A DNA stretch of 29,218 bases, from positions 1 through 29,218 of the forward strand of contig CAZDMB010000005.1 of the NCBI GenBank assembly GCA_964506175.1, given 5' to 3'. Position 1 is the stretch's first letter. The number at the start of each line of letters is the position of its first letter. This stretch comes from an uncultured Planctomycetales bacterium. GTDB lineage: Bacteria; Planctomycetota; UBA1135. The notes below the pieces were generated by a model. That model did no database searches. It saw only the letters and a list, made by a program, of their open reading frames with translations, and had not been told where the DNA came from. Positions 21,056 through 23,248 of the stretch are shown here, in pieces. The position numbers and the translations under genes were made by a program.

Positions 21056-22555
21056 ATGCGGACCTCAAGGTCACTCGTCGGCGCGGCGTGCGCCGCCGCG
21101 GCGCTGACGGCTTGCCTCGCGGGCGGCGGGGGCACGCCCACGGGCGAGGCGGAACTGGACGTCCAGCTGGCCGCCCTCATCCTCGAGCACGGGCTCACCG
21201 GGAGGCCGGAACTCCTGGCCACGAACGAAGGCGAGAACCTCCCGCGCCTGGACGATCCGCTGGTCGAACTCGGCAAGCGCCTGTTCTTCACGCGCTCTCT
21301 CGGCGGCAACTTCACCTCGACCTGCGCGAGTTGCCACCATCCGCTGCTCGCCGGCGGCGACGCGCTCACCCTGCCGGTCGGGGTGGACGCGGTGGACCCG
21401 GCGCGCGTCGGCCCGGGCCGCCAGCAAGCGCCCGGCGCGGCGGGCTATGACGGCGGCCCCAACGTGCCGCGCAATTCCCCCACCACCTTCAACAGCGTGC
21501 TCTATCGCAAGGCGCTGTTCTGGGACGGCCGCGTGCGCCGCAATCCGCTGGACGGCGGCATCCTGACGCCGGATTCCGCCGGTCCGACCGCCAGCGACCC
21601 GGACGCGGGTCCCTCGCTGCTGGCCGCGCAGGCGCGCTTCCCCGTGACCTCGGAGGAGGAGATGCGCTCCTTCGACTTCGAGATCAACAGCACGCGCGCC
21701 GAGGTGCGCGCGCACCTGGCTGGCCGCCTCGGCCACTACGGCGCCGGCGTCGGCGAGATTCCGGATTCGTGGCTGCCGCTTTTTCGCCGCGCCTTCGATC
21801 AGCCCGCCGGCACCGCCCAGGACCTGATCCACTTCGGCACCATCAACCTCGCGCTCGCCGCGTATCAGGCCTCGCAATTGTTCGTGGACAATCCGTGGAA
21901 CCGCTACGTGCTGGGCGAGACCAAGGCCATCAGCACGGCGGCCAAGCGCGGCGCGCTCCTGTTCTTCCGCACGCCGGCGCACGGCGGCGCCGGTTGCGCC
22001 GCGTGCCATTCCGGCGATTTCTTCACCGACGAGGACTTCCACATCCTCGCCATGCCGCAGGTTGGACGCGGCAAGGGGGACGTCAACGAGCTCGGCGAAG
22101 CCACCGGCGACTTCGGCCGCTGGCAAGTGACGGGAGACGCCCGCGACAAATTCGCCTTCCGCACGCCGACCCTGCTGAACGCCGAGGTGAGCGCGCCCTA
22201 CGGCCATGACGGCGCCTACGACGCGCTGGCGGACGTGATCCGGCATCATCTGGACCCCGTCGGCATGGCCGCGAACTACTACTGGCCGCAGACGGACCCA
22301 GGCACGCAAGTGTCCTCGATGATCCAGAACACCGGCGAGGCGGTGGCGGCGCTGCTGGCGGCGCGGGCGCAAGGCCGCTCGCTGCTGCCGACCGGCGTGG
22401 CCCTGACCAATCAGGACCTCGGCGACCTGCTCGCCTTCATGAAGGCCCTGACGGACGCGCGGGTGAAATCCGCGGCGGCGCTGGAGCCGTGGGTGGCGCG
22501 CGATGACGCGCAATTCACCGACTCGCAGTTGCTCGACGCCAGTTTCCAGAACTGA
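21056..22555 (+). CDS. Di-haem cytochrome c peroxidase / MauG-like lipoprotein
   Basis: Start re-assigned to ATG 21056. Lipobox LTAC; CASCH and CAACH; RNSPTTFN, LFWDGR, FRTPTLLN and PYGHDG. Confidence 0.9.
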   Translation: MRTSRSLVGAACAAAALTACLAGGGGTPTGEAELDVQLAALILEHGLTGRPELLATNEGENLPRLDDPLVELGKRLFFTRSLGGNFTSTCASCHHPLLAGGDALTLPVGVDAVDPARVGPGRQQAPGAAGYDGGPNVPRNSPTTFNSVLYRKALFWDGRVRRNPLDGGILTPDSAGPTASDPDAGPSLLAAQARFPVTSEEEMRSFDFEINSTRAEVRAHLAGRLGHYGAGVGEIPDSWLPLFRRAFDQPAGTAQDLIHFGTINLALAAYQASQLFVDNPWNRYVLGETKAISTAAKRGALLFFRTPAHGGAGCAACHSGDFFTDEDFHILAMPQVGRGKGDVNELGEATGDFGRWQVTGDARDKFAFRTPTLLNAEVSAPYGHDGAYDALADVIRHHLDPVGMAANYYWPQTDPGTQVSSMIQNTGEAVAALLAARAQGRSLLPTGVALTNQDLGDLLAFMKALTDARVKSAAALEPWVARDDAQFTDSQLLDASFQN

Positions 22556-22576
22556 GCACGGCGCGTGGTTTGCCGC

Positions 22577-22582
22577 TAGCAT
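22577..22582 (+). promoter_or_regulatory. Putative -10 box (TAGCAT) 6 nt before ATG 22589
   Basis: Same TAnnnT geometry as at other genes; independently supports 22589 as the true start. Confidence 0.55.
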
Positions 22583-22588
22583 CCTCGG

Positions 22589-23248
22589 ATGCTCGCCGAA
22601 CTCCTCCTGCTCGCCCAGCAGCCCGCCACGGACGCCGCCGTCCCTTCATGACCCGTGTGACCGGGCGAAGGCCAGCCGGTTCGTTGGACCGGCGACACCG
22701 AGAAAGAGCGGCCATACACCTTCAGCCTGCGCTGGATTCCGAACATCGCGGTGGATCGGCCGCGCGTGCGCATGAACCTCGCCTACCGCGCGACCACGCG
22801 CCTGTCGGTGGCCCTGGAATACAACCCGCTCGCGGACGAGGTTCTGCCGAACTTCAACTACTCGCCCTCTTTGCCCGGCGAACACATCGAGGGCGTCGGC
22901 GCGATCGTGGGCCTTTCTTCCGACCGCATCGGCACCCCGAGCGGCGTCGCCTGGTTCGGGACGCTGTCCTGGAACGCGCAGGCGTGGAGCGACCTGCCGC
23001 TCTCCGGCTACGCCGGCCTCGCCTTCGGCACCTACGAGGACGAACTGCGGCCGATCGCCGGCGCCACCTGGAGTTTCAGCGACCGCATCTCCGCCGGCTT
23101 CATCCATGACGGCGAGAACCCGCACTGGATCGGTTCCTATGGCCTGGGCGAACTGGGCCCGGGCGGCGGCCTCTATCAGGCGGATCTGCTGATCATCGAG
23201 CAGGACGGCGTGCGCACCTTCGGCACCACGCTTTCCGTCCGCTTCTAG
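22589..23248 (+). CDS. Candidate selenoprotein: small outer-membrane beta-barrel-like protein with an N-terminal UxxU motif (219 aa if both TGA are decoded)
   Basis: ATG 22589 is in frame with track ORF 22751..23248: MLAELLLLA-QQPATDAAVPS-TGA(22649)-P-V-TGA(22658)-PGEGQPVRWTG... It has a signal peptide, amphipathic strands, SSDRIGTP, a C-terminal beta-signal-like TTLSVRF and a downstream hairpin. Confidence 0.75.
22675..22693 (+). promoter_or_regulatory. Bacterial SECIS-like stem-loop
   Basis: GCCGGU(UC)-GUU-(GG)ACCGGC: six Watson-Crick pairs plus U-G and C-G, with an apical G followed by U. The loop G (22683) lies 22 nt after the second UGA and 31 nt after the first. Confidence 0.65.

What the first reader, a model, noticed from the sequence alone, without database searches (positions are those of the whole stretch)
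22649..22693. One SECIS-like hairpin positioned to serve both UGA codons
Seen: GCCGGTTC-GTT-GGACCGGC (22675-22693) lies inside the coding region, with its apical G 22 nt after UGA-2 and 31 nt after UGA-1. Established: bacterial SECIS elements are hairpins just 3' of the UGA with a G early in a small apical loop, often followed by U, at roughly 16-37 nt. Inference: both spacings fit, so one element may recode two UGAs 9 nt apart, which is mechanistically interesting for SelB tethering.
Basis: partly seen in the sequence, partly recalled or inferred. Interest (0 to 1): 0.7.

Follow-up and report, generated by a model that had tools for sequence, protein, structure and literature searches.

The report
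One SECIS hairpin, two selenocysteine codons
The hairpin is a real selenocysteine-insertion signal, kept by selection, and it sits just after two UGA codons in a hidden outer-membrane protein gene; relatives that keep only one of the two UGAs still keep the same hairpin, so it very likely serves both, an arrangement already suspected for other bacterial proteins but never tested.

Summary
Observation confirmed. GCCGGUUC-GUU-GGACCGGC (22675-22693) is an 8-bp, GUU-loop hairpin of -12.0 kcal/mol. Its loop G lies 22 nt after UGA-2 (22658-22660) and 31 nt after UGA-1 (22649-22651).

- **The gene.** Both UGAs lie in a 219-codon gene (22589-23248): signal peptide, VPS-U-PV-U-PGEG tail, 12-stranded outer-membrane barrel. 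Of 81 loci from several phyla, 77 have TGA at both sites and 3 have TGC/TGA. Distant homologues have CxxC. The genome encodes tRNA-Sec, SelA, SelB and a Sec-type SelD.
- **The hairpin is selected.** In 40 Planctomycetota-type loci, 91% of stem positions pair, against 71% after synonymous-codon resampling. Five of eight pairs show compensatory changes. The loop Arg codon is CGT in 39 of 40, against 8% elsewhere in the same genes.
- **Other clades.** Acidobacteriota and a second planctomycete subfamily carry a hairpin 4 nt closer. CxxC homologues have none in register.
- **One element for both UGAs.** CxxU and UxxC variants keep the same hairpin, no second conserved structure exists, and both spacings occur in single-UGA genes of this clade.

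Single-SECIS decoding of both UGAs is well supported but untested. UxxU motifs, and the single-SECIS idea, are already published. This scan also met UxxU genes on other DNA, including an outer-membrane barrel that begins with Sec-x-x-Sec.

The parts
22589..22648 (+). Start codon (ATG) and short hydrophobic signal-peptide-like N-terminus (MLAELLLLAQQPATDAAVPS), directly upstream of UGA-1.
   Evidence: TAG at 22577 closes the frame upstream. Relatives have clearer signal peptides at the same place.
22649..22651 (+). UGA-1, the first Sec codon of the U-P-V-U motif, followed by C.
   Evidence: TGA in 78 of 81 loci and TGC in 3. Cys in distant homologues.
22658..22660 (+). UGA-2, the second Sec codon, followed by C.
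   Evidence: TGA in 80 of 81 loci and TAA in one second copy. TGT in the UxxC paralogue L120.
22661..22674 (+). 14-nt spacer between UGA-2 and the base of the hairpin; it encodes PGEG, which is invariant at protein level.
   Evidence: The small CCCG/CGGG stem that the single-sequence fold puts here has no comparative support.
22675..22693 (+). SECIS hairpin: 5' arm 22675-22682, apical loop GUU 22683-22685, 3' arm 22686-22693.
22715..23242 (+). 12-stranded outer-membrane beta-barrel domain (residues 43-218) ending in ...SVRF; the stop TAG is at 23246-23248.
   Evidence: AlphaFold2 model with pLDDT about 88 over residues 43-218. Foldseek matches FapF, NanC, KdgM and designed transmembrane barrels. 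Public gene calls start at 22751 or 22772 and would remove strand 1.

Best explanation
The hairpin at 22675-22693 is a bacterial SECIS element inside the coding region of a mis-annotated selenoprotein gene (22589-23248), and it is the only recoding signal for both UGA codons of the U-P-V-U motif. Proposed course (inferred): SelB-GTP-Sec-tRNA(Sec) binds the G-U of the apical loop. When the ribosome has UGA-1 in the A site, the stem base is 23 nt downstream and still folded, and the tethered SelB delivers Sec. Three codons later UGA-2 is in the A site, the stem base is 14 nt downstream and still outside the mRNA entry channel, and a second SelB complex bound to the same hairpin delivers the second Sec. 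Only then is the hairpin unwound. Both UGAs are followed by C, a weak termination context (from my own knowledge). The product is an exported 12-stranded outer-membrane barrel whose disordered, presumably periplasmic, N-terminal tail carries the Sec-x-x-Sec pair, probably a redox or metal-binding site. Shown here: the hairpin exists, is under selection at the RNA level, goes with UGA and not with Cys codons, and is retained when either UGA alone remains. Inferred: SelB binding, and use of the hairpin twice.
For: 1. The UGAs are coding. TGA/TGA occurs in 77 of 81 loci across Planctomycetota, Acidobacteriota and Verrucomicrobiota, with conserved peptide on both sides (VPS-U-P[VL]-U-PGEG). Cys-Cys homologues exist: P0029 has VPSCPVCPGE, and L091-L097 have PTCAGCAGE written with TGC/TGT. 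No in-frame start lies between UGA-2 and the conserved first strand. TGA ends the neighbouring CCP gene and TAG ends this one.
2. The machinery is present: tRNA-Sec at 75 bits with anticodon tca, SelA, the SelB wing domain, and SelD with one TGA.
3. The hairpin is under RNA-level selection. 90.9% of cells pair against 75.2% in shuffles and 26-57% slid; the covariation score is 0.454 against 0.175; 5 of 8 pairs show two-sided changes. L011 has two compensatory pairs made purely of synonymous changes. Synonymous resampling gives 0.713 +/- 0.018 against 0.909 observed (0 of 2000 reach it).
4. The loop U is a selected synonymous site: CGT in 39 of 40, against 8.2% of 441 Arg codons in the rest of the same genes.
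5. Other clades have their own hairpin with a G-U loop 4 nt closer. The Acidobacteriota type pairs in 100% of cells, with U-A (21) and C-G (16) covarying at one pair. The second planctomycete subfamily shows the same.
6. CxxC homologues have no hairpin in register (54% and 39% of model pairs).
7. CxxU (L021, L051, L082) and UxxC (L120, next to a UxxU paralogue) variants keep the hairpin at the same columns.
8. There is no second element.
9. Single-UGA SelD genes of this order carry GUU, CGUGC or CGUGA loops 27 or 33 nt after the UGA. Predicted hairpins of Prx-like genes of this genome sit at 20-30 nt.
10. All four published bSECIS criteria are met (PMC13188914).
Against: - No experiment: SelB binding and Sec insertion at either codon are inferred.
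- From my own knowledge of E. coli fdhF work, changing the UGA-to-hairpin spacing by a few nucleotides reduces read-through strongly, so a 9-nt difference is not obviously tolerated by every SelB.
- The UxxC case is a single gene (L120) in a subfamily only 26-28% identical to the window's protein.
- The Cys-Cys controls are distant (24-47% identity) and differ in peptide over the hairpin region, so their lack of a hairpin is not a clean sister-group contrast.
- The in-genome spacing references other than SelD are single-sequence folds.
- The genome is 81% complete, so a second SelB or a tRNA-ReC could be missing from the assembly.
Confidence: 0.7

Rival explanations
1. The hairpin is a true SECIS but serves only one of the two UGAs, most likely UGA-2, which sits at the E. 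coli-like distance in the Acidobacteriota-type genes. The other UGA is read by another route: SECIS-independent or long-range SelB action at low efficiency, a tRNA-ReC-like tRNA inserting Cys, or near-cognate read-through.
For: CxxU variants arose three times against one UxxC among the loci seen, as if UGA-1 were the more dispensable codon. PMC13582414 reports tRNA-ReC enriched in genomes with UXXU hydrogenases. In Acidobacteriota-type genes the spacer after UGA-2 is 10 nt, close to the 11 nt I recall for the minimal fdhF SECIS.
Against: L120 keeps UGA-1 alone together with the same hairpin. SelD genes of this order place their loop G 27 or 33 nt from a single UGA, the same distance that UGA-1 has here (27 or 31 nt). 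Only one tRNA-Sec-like gene was found, and the other Rfam hits are ordinary Ser, Leu, Tyr and similar tRNAs. UGA-1 is TGA in 78 of 81 loci, which implies an efficient decoding route.
Confidence: 0.2
2. The hairpin is a by-product of a conserved peptide or of GC-rich sequence. The TGAs are real stops or assembly errors, and the gene starts at GTG 22751 or ATG 22772 as in public gene calls.
For: The 61-nt stretch folds no better than shuffles (z = -0.5). Public databases call the protein from downstream starts. There is no Rfam match.
Against: Synonymous resampling cannot reproduce the pairing (0 of 2000). Compensatory changes occur at synonymous sites. CGT is used in 39 of 40. The TGA pair and its flanking peptide are conserved across phyla, with Cys in homologues. 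The downstream starts would delete the first barrel strand and the signal peptide.
Confidence: 0.03
3. The conserved hairpin has a different main job, for example pausing the ribosome for co-translational targeting of the signal peptide or stabilising the mRNA, and the recoding signal lies elsewhere.
For: The hairpin lies about 30 codons from the start, where pausing could help export. This is speculation with no direct evidence.
Against: The hairpin is missing from exported Cys-Cys homologues that have the same architecture. Its loop carries the selected G-U that characterises bacterial SECIS loops (PMC13188914). The same loop types follow the UGA of SelD in this order. No other conserved structure is available as a SECIS.
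Confidence: 0.05

Closest known systems
Bacterial SECIS element (bSECIS consensus of Zhang and Gladyshev, as summarised in PMC13188914; prototype E. coli fdhF)
   Same: A stem-loop in the coding region just 3' of the UGA. It has a small apical loop starting with G followed by U, an 8-bp upper stem, 22 and 31 nt between UGA and loop (allowed range 16-37), and a folding energy of -12 kcal/mol (allowed at most -7.5).
   Different: One element follows two UGAs 9 nt apart. It has a short perfect stem with no bulged U and no lower stem. Its position shifts by 4 nt between clades of the same gene family.
UXXU-type Group 4 [NiFeSe] hydrogenases (PMC13582414, 2026)
   Same: A bacterial UxxU motif derived from CxxC, with one predicted downstream SECIS that has a conserved loop G. 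CXXU and UXXU types share the same SECIS. The authors raise the possibility that a single SECIS decodes both UGAs.
   Different: An unrelated protein (cytoplasmic or membrane Ni-Fe enzyme against an exported outer-membrane barrel). There tRNA-ReC is enriched in UXXU genomes; none was found in this genome. This family also offers a UxxC paralogue with the same hairpin, and clade-specific spacings.
Catalogued bacterial UxxU selenoproteins: Prx-like thiol:disulfide oxidoreductase (GOS Prx-like 2, PMC2398784), NF041115 metal-binding protein and the FmdB family (table in PMC13188914)
   Same: Two Sec residues in a CxxC-like redox or metal motif, with Cys-containing homologues.
   Different: No sequence relationship: the window protein hits no NCBIfam or Pfam model. 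The motif sits on a disordered tail of a beta-barrel, not in a thioredoxin fold or an HMA domain.
12-stranded outer-membrane barrels (KdgM and NanC porins, FapF)
   Same: The predicted fold of residues 43-218 and the C-terminal Phe.
   Different: About 10% identity and TM-scores near 0.5, so similarity is at fold level only. None of these carries an N-terminal CxxC or UxxU tail.

Membership tests
Bacterial SECIS (bSECIS consensus model, PMC13188914 Fig. 2) | 3-9 nt apical loop on a 4-16 bp upper stem | tested here: met
   3-nt loop (GUU) and 8-bp stem. Relatives have 3-nt or 5-nt loops (GUG, CGUGC, CGUGA).
Bacterial SECIS (bSECIS consensus model, PMC13188914 Fig. 2) | G in one of the first two loop positions, usually followed by G or U | tested here: met
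   The loop is G-U-U. The G is invariant and the U is kept at a synonymous site (CGT 39 of 40 against 8.2% background).
Bacterial SECIS (bSECIS consensus model, PMC13188914 Fig. 2) | [quoted passage not shown] | tested here: met
   22 nt from UGA-2 and 31 nt from UGA-1. In the other two clades the figures are 18 and 27 nt.
Bacterial SECIS (bSECIS consensus model, PMC13188914 Fig. 2) | Minimum free energy at most -7.5 kcal/mol | tested here: met
   -12.0 kcal/mol for 22675-22693.
Bacterial SECIS (functional definition) | Bound by SelB and required for Sec insertion at the UGA | not testable with these tools
   Indirect evidence only. The hairpin goes with UGA and not with Cys codons. The same loop types follow the SelD UGA in this order. 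SelB, SelA, SelD and tRNA-Sec are present.
Selenoprotein gene (Sec/Cys-pair criterion) | In-frame TGA conserved among homologues, conserved flanks, and Cys at the aligned position in other homologues | tested here: met
   TGA/TGA in 77 of 81 loci. TGC at site 1 in 3 loci, TGT at site 2 in L120, and CxxC in P0029, P0086, P0093, P0103 and L091-L097.
Known UxxU selenoprotein families with NCBIfam or Pfam models (NF041115, Prx-like PF00578, FmdB TIGR02605) | Match to the family model | tested here: not met
   No Pfam or NCBIfam hit at E up to 0.1 for the window protein.
Rfam RNA families | Match to any curated covariance model | tested here: not met
   Only two chance-level hits elsewhere in 22400-23000.

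The most novel reading that the evidence does not exclude
Bacterial SelB-SECIS tethering is far more elastic than the E. coli fdhF paradigm suggests. One short hairpin is loaded twice within three codons and works at two spacings 9 nt apart. The same gene family tolerates a further 4-nt shift between clades (18 and 27 nt against 22 and 31 nt). The hairpin is placed as close to UGA-2 as the ribosome's mRNA channel allows, so that it is still within reach of UGA-1. This family, with natural UxxU, CxxU, UxxC and CxxC forms and two cultured carriers, would be a ready-made system to measure that elasticity.
Probability: 0.6. Interest if true: 0.65.

Novelty: new member of a known kind. Interest (0 to 1): 0.58.

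Why it matters
How a bacterial ribosome reads two UGA codons three codons apart as selenocysteine is an open mechanistic question. The SECIS must sit right behind the UGA, and in E. coli its spacing is thought to be tight. Single-SECIS decoding of UxxU has been proposed only in silico (PMC13582414).

This family offers unusually clean natural evidence:
- one conserved hairpin and no second one;
- clade-specific positions of that hairpin;
- natural single-UGA variants of both kinds that keep the hairpin.

It occurs in two cultured planctomycetes, so direct tests are feasible. In practical terms, public gene calls for this family are truncated: they lose the signal peptide, the Sec pair and the first barrel strand. 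Fusions of the Sec/Cys tail-plus-barrel to thioredoxin-like, His-rich or YHS domains point to an unexplored selenium-dependent redox or metal function at the outer membrane.

Tried and rejected
- **Single-sequence folding.** The hairpin is in the minimum-energy fold, but z = -0.5 over 61 nt. It also predicts a small CCCG/CGGG stem enclosing UGA-2, which has no comparative support (worse than shuffles).
- **RNAalifold on all 78 sequences together.** It found nothing, because the family holds two hairpin registers. Splitting by clade resolved this.
- **A second hairpin, as reported for other UxxU families in this scan.** The 50 nt after the hairpin fold no better than shuffles (mean z 0.07 and 0.26).
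- **A tRNA-ReC-like second tRNA.** The sub-threshold tRNA-Sec hits are ordinary tRNAs.
- **Functional link to the upstream di-haem peroxidase.** Synteny holds only in the two closest relatives, so no inference was drawn.
- **A separate thioredoxin partner near planctomycete-type genes.** tblastn with the acidobacterial N-terminal domain found only the two fused forms and nothing in the window.
- **Family databases.** Pfam, NCBIfam and Rfam gave no family for the barrel or the hairpin.
- **The look-up of encoding contigs was closed.** The DNA of P0029, the closest Cys-Cys homologue, could not be examined.
- **Literature on fdhF spacing.** The search gave nothing citable, so those statements rest on my own knowledge.

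Full report
**What is at the site**

On the + strand, TGA-1 is at 22649-22651 and TGA-2 at 22658-22660. Both lie in the frame of the ORF that public gene calls start at 22751 or 22772. Read with TGA as Sec from ATG 22589, the frame gives a 219-residue protein: a short hydrophobic N-terminus, then VPS-U-PV-U-PGEG, a linker, and a beta-rich body ending in ...SVRF. TAG at 22577 closes the frame upstream. The gene ends with TAG at 23246-23248. The neighbouring di-haem peroxidase gene ends with TGA, so TGA is an ordinary stop in this genome.

Alone it folds at -12.0 kcal/mol with z = -3.5. The 61-nt stretch around it is not exceptional for this GC-rich DNA (z = -0.5).

**The UGAs are selenocysteine codons**

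The window lies in a draft genome of 2.73 Mb, 81% complete. That genome has:
- a tRNA-Sec (75 bits; ARAGORN reads SeC with anticodon tca);
- SelA and a SelB wing domain;
- a SelD gene with one in-frame TGA beside the tRNA-Sec;
- seven AhpC/TSA-like genes, each with one in-frame TGA.

A scan of one genome per species found 445 relatives, of which 80 loci were kept. In-frame translation shows the same motif in all of them. Counting the window, the 81 loci split as follows:

| Codons at the two sites | Loci |
|---|---|
| TGA / TGA | 77 |
| TGC / TGA (CxxU: L021, L051, L082) | 3 |
| TGA / TAA (a second copy in one assembly) | 1 |

The peptide is conserved on both sides of the TGAs, and no in-frame start lies between UGA-2 and the conserved RP[FY]T.S.R strand. 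More distant homologues carry Cys at both sites:
- P0029 reads VPSCPVCPGE.
- P0086, P0093 and P0103 read TCAGCAGE.
- Seven metagenome loci write that motif with TGC or TGT.

In 400 sampled Planctomycetota genomes, 14 besides the window's own carry the family, nearly all with two TGAs.

**The protein**

AlphaFold2 gives a 12-stranded barrel for residues 43-218 (pLDDT about 88) and a disordered N-terminal 38 residues that hold the Sec pair. Foldseek matches outer-membrane barrels: FapF, NanC, KdgM and designed transmembrane barrels. Pfam and NCBIfam have no model for it. The protein atlas places it among unnamed outer-membrane barrel clusters.

Domain fusions differ between lineages:
- Acidobacterial members carry an N-terminal AhpC-TSA/Redoxin (TlpA-like) domain, some with His-rich linkers just before the motif.
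- The Cys-Cys forms carry two YHS domains.

I therefore read the tail as a redox or metal site on the periplasmic side of an outer-membrane barrel. That part is inference. Synteny with the peroxidase gene holds only in the two closest relatives.

**The hairpin is under selection as RNA**

From 6 nt before TGA-1 the region aligns without gaps over 72 columns (A2). Window position equals column plus 22642. The family holds three hairpin registers.

| Type | Sequences | Stem columns | Loop | nt from UGA-2 / UGA-1 to loop G |
|---|---|---|---|---|
| Planctomycetota (includes the window) | 40 | 33-40 with 44-51 | 41-43 (GUU or GUG; opens to CGUGC or CGUGU where the closing pair is lost) | 22 / 31 |
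| Acidobacteriota (plus one Verrucomicrobiota) | 38 | 29-31 and 33-35 with 41-43 and 45-47, constant G/G mismatch at columns 32 and 44 | 36-40 (mostly CGUGA) | 18 / 27 |
| Second planctomycete subfamily (VPM-U-xG-U-PGEG) | 6 | 29-36 with 40-47 | 37-39 (GUU or GUC; in two of the six, single-sequence folds open it to GGUCU, columns 36-40) | 18 / 27 |

*Planctomycetota type (A5)*
- 90.9% of stem cells pair, against 75.2 +/- 1.5% when partners are shuffled and 26-57% when partners are slid by 1-3 columns.
- The covariation score is 0.454 against 0.175. Five of eight pairs show two-sided changes, in 41 cells.
- L011 differs from the window by G-C to A-U at two pairs, and all four substitutions are synonymous.
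- L016 changes C-G to U-A at the cost of two amino-acid changes (P to S, G to D).
- Resampling synonymous codons from the codon usage of the same genes gives 0.713 +/- 0.018 paired. None of 2000 trials reaches the observed 0.909.
- The Arg codon that supplies the loop G-U is CGT in 39 of 40. CGT is only 8.2% of 441 Arg codons elsewhere in these genes, whose third-position GC is 0.88.

*Acidobacteriota type (A6)*
- The hairpin lies 4 nt nearer the UGAs.
- 100% of cells pair. U-A (21 sequences) covaries with C-G (16 sequences) at columns 30 and 46.
- Synonymous resampling gives 0.556 against 1.0 observed.

*Second planctomycete subfamily*
- It is 26-28% identical to the window protein and comes from lower-GC genomes.

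*Cys-Cys loci*
- The six loci show neither register (54% and 39% of model pairs).
- Their local hairpins are weaker and scattered.

**Does one hairpin serve both UGAs?**

Four lines of evidence point to yes.

1. There is no other conserved structure.
   - The small stem around UGA-2 seen in the single-sequence fold fails the comparative test.
   - The 50 nt after the hairpin fold no better than shuffles. Earlier notes of this scan report twin hairpins in other UxxU families, which is why I tested this.
2. Natural single-UGA variants keep the hairpin at the same columns.
   - Three independent CxxU genes do so (L021, L051, L082).
   - One UxxC gene does so (L120). It is intact, ends in Phe, and lies in tandem with a UxxU paralogue in a genome of the window's own family.
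3. Both spacings are in use in single-UGA genes of the clade.
   - SelD carries one TGA in most genomes of this order.
   - Its downstream hairpins have GUU, GUC, CGUGC or CGUGA loops, the same loop types as here. The loop G lies 33 nt after the UGA in one group, which includes this genome, and 27 nt after it in another.
   - Single-sequence folds of Prx-like genes of this genome suggest 20, 22, 29 and 30 nt. This is weaker evidence.
   - UGA-1 (27 or 31 nt) therefore sits at the SelD-like distance, and UGA-2 (18 or 22 nt) at the short end.
4. The geometry allows it. With UGA-2 in the A site the stem base is 14 nt downstream of the codon (10 nt in the other two clades). I expect it to be still folded at the mRNA entrance, judging from my own knowledge of ribosome footprints and of the fdhF minimal SECIS with its 11-nt spacer.

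All four criteria of the published bSECIS model are met for both UGAs (PMC13188914).

**What is known, and novelty**

- Bacterial UxxU motifs have been catalogued since the GOS survey (PMC2398784). Current lists name the Prx-like, NF041115 and FmdB families (PMC13188914).
- A 2026 paper on Group 4 [NiFeSe] hydrogenases states that a single downstream SECIS may decode both UGAs of UXXU, and finds tRNA-ReC enriched in such genomes (PMC13582414).
- I found no tRNA-ReC candidate here, but the genome is incomplete.
- This scan has already reported UxxU genes on other DNA. One is an outer-membrane barrel family that starts with Sec-x-x-Sec (e1-4668115), which looks like the same family by description; I did not compare the sequences. 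Others are UxxU families with twin hairpins.

The element is therefore a further member of a known kind. The additions are comparative:
- synonymous-site evidence for the hairpin;
- a clade-specific 4-nt shift in its position;
- natural CxxU and UxxC variants that share it;
- the absence of a second hairpin.

**Limits**

- Nothing here shows SelB binding or Sec insertion.
- The UxxC case is a single gene.
- The Cys-Cys controls are distant.
- The statements about the spacing sensitivity of fdhF rest on my own knowledge; searches for a citable source failed.

Noticed in passing
G000 contigs C79, C84, C21, C192, C163, C207, C151, C54 (loci L098, L102-L106, L108): The genome is rich in selenoproteins. 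SelD has one in-frame TGA and lies beside the tRNA-Sec gene. Seven AhpC/TSA-like (Prx or TlpA-like) genes each have one in-frame TGA, in contexts such as FV-U-PTE, FW-U-GPC and FH-U-GGC.
   Followed up: partly
L120 and L125 (genome G301, contig C13, 9590-10763): Tandem paralogues of the barrel gene lie in a genome of the window's own family. One has UxxU and the other UxxC, and both have the same downstream hairpin. This is a natural experiment on which UGA needs the element.
   Followed up: partly
L034-L090 (Acidobacteriota loci, e.g. L049:2140-3594); L054, L057, L059, L067, L071: Acidobacterial members are proteins of about 490 residues: signal peptide, a Cys-rich stretch, a TlpA-like AhpC-TSA/Redoxin domain, a linker, UxxU and the barrel. 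Several have His-rich linkers directly before the Sec pair, which hints at metal binding.
   Followed up: partly
L091-L097 (metagenome loci): The Cys-Cys relatives (PTCAGCAGEAR) are fused to two YHS/TRASH-type metal-binding domains upstream of the CxxC tail and the barrel.
   Followed up: partly
L075:3010-3021: A second copy of the gene in one assembly (the same MAG as L030) has TAA instead of the second TGA while keeping the hairpin. It may be a pseudogene or an assembly error.
   Followed up: no
L118, L119, L121, L122 (columns 1-14 of alignment A7): In the VPM-U-VG-U subfamily a small 5-bp hairpin encloses UGA-1 in its loop (CCCAU-GUGA-GUGGG). There are too few sequences to judge.
   Followed up: no
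L126-L155 (SelD loci of the order): SelD SECIS hairpins of this order fall into two registers, with the loop G 27 or 33 nt after the UGA, and have CGUGA, CGUGC or GUU loops. Some genomes have a Cys-type SelD or a second copy.
   Followed up: partly
window 22751 and 22772; proteins P0001-P0034: Public gene calls for this family start at ragged positions just after UGA-2. They lose the signal peptide, the Sec pair and the first barrel strand, and all are named hypothetical.
   Followed up: yes
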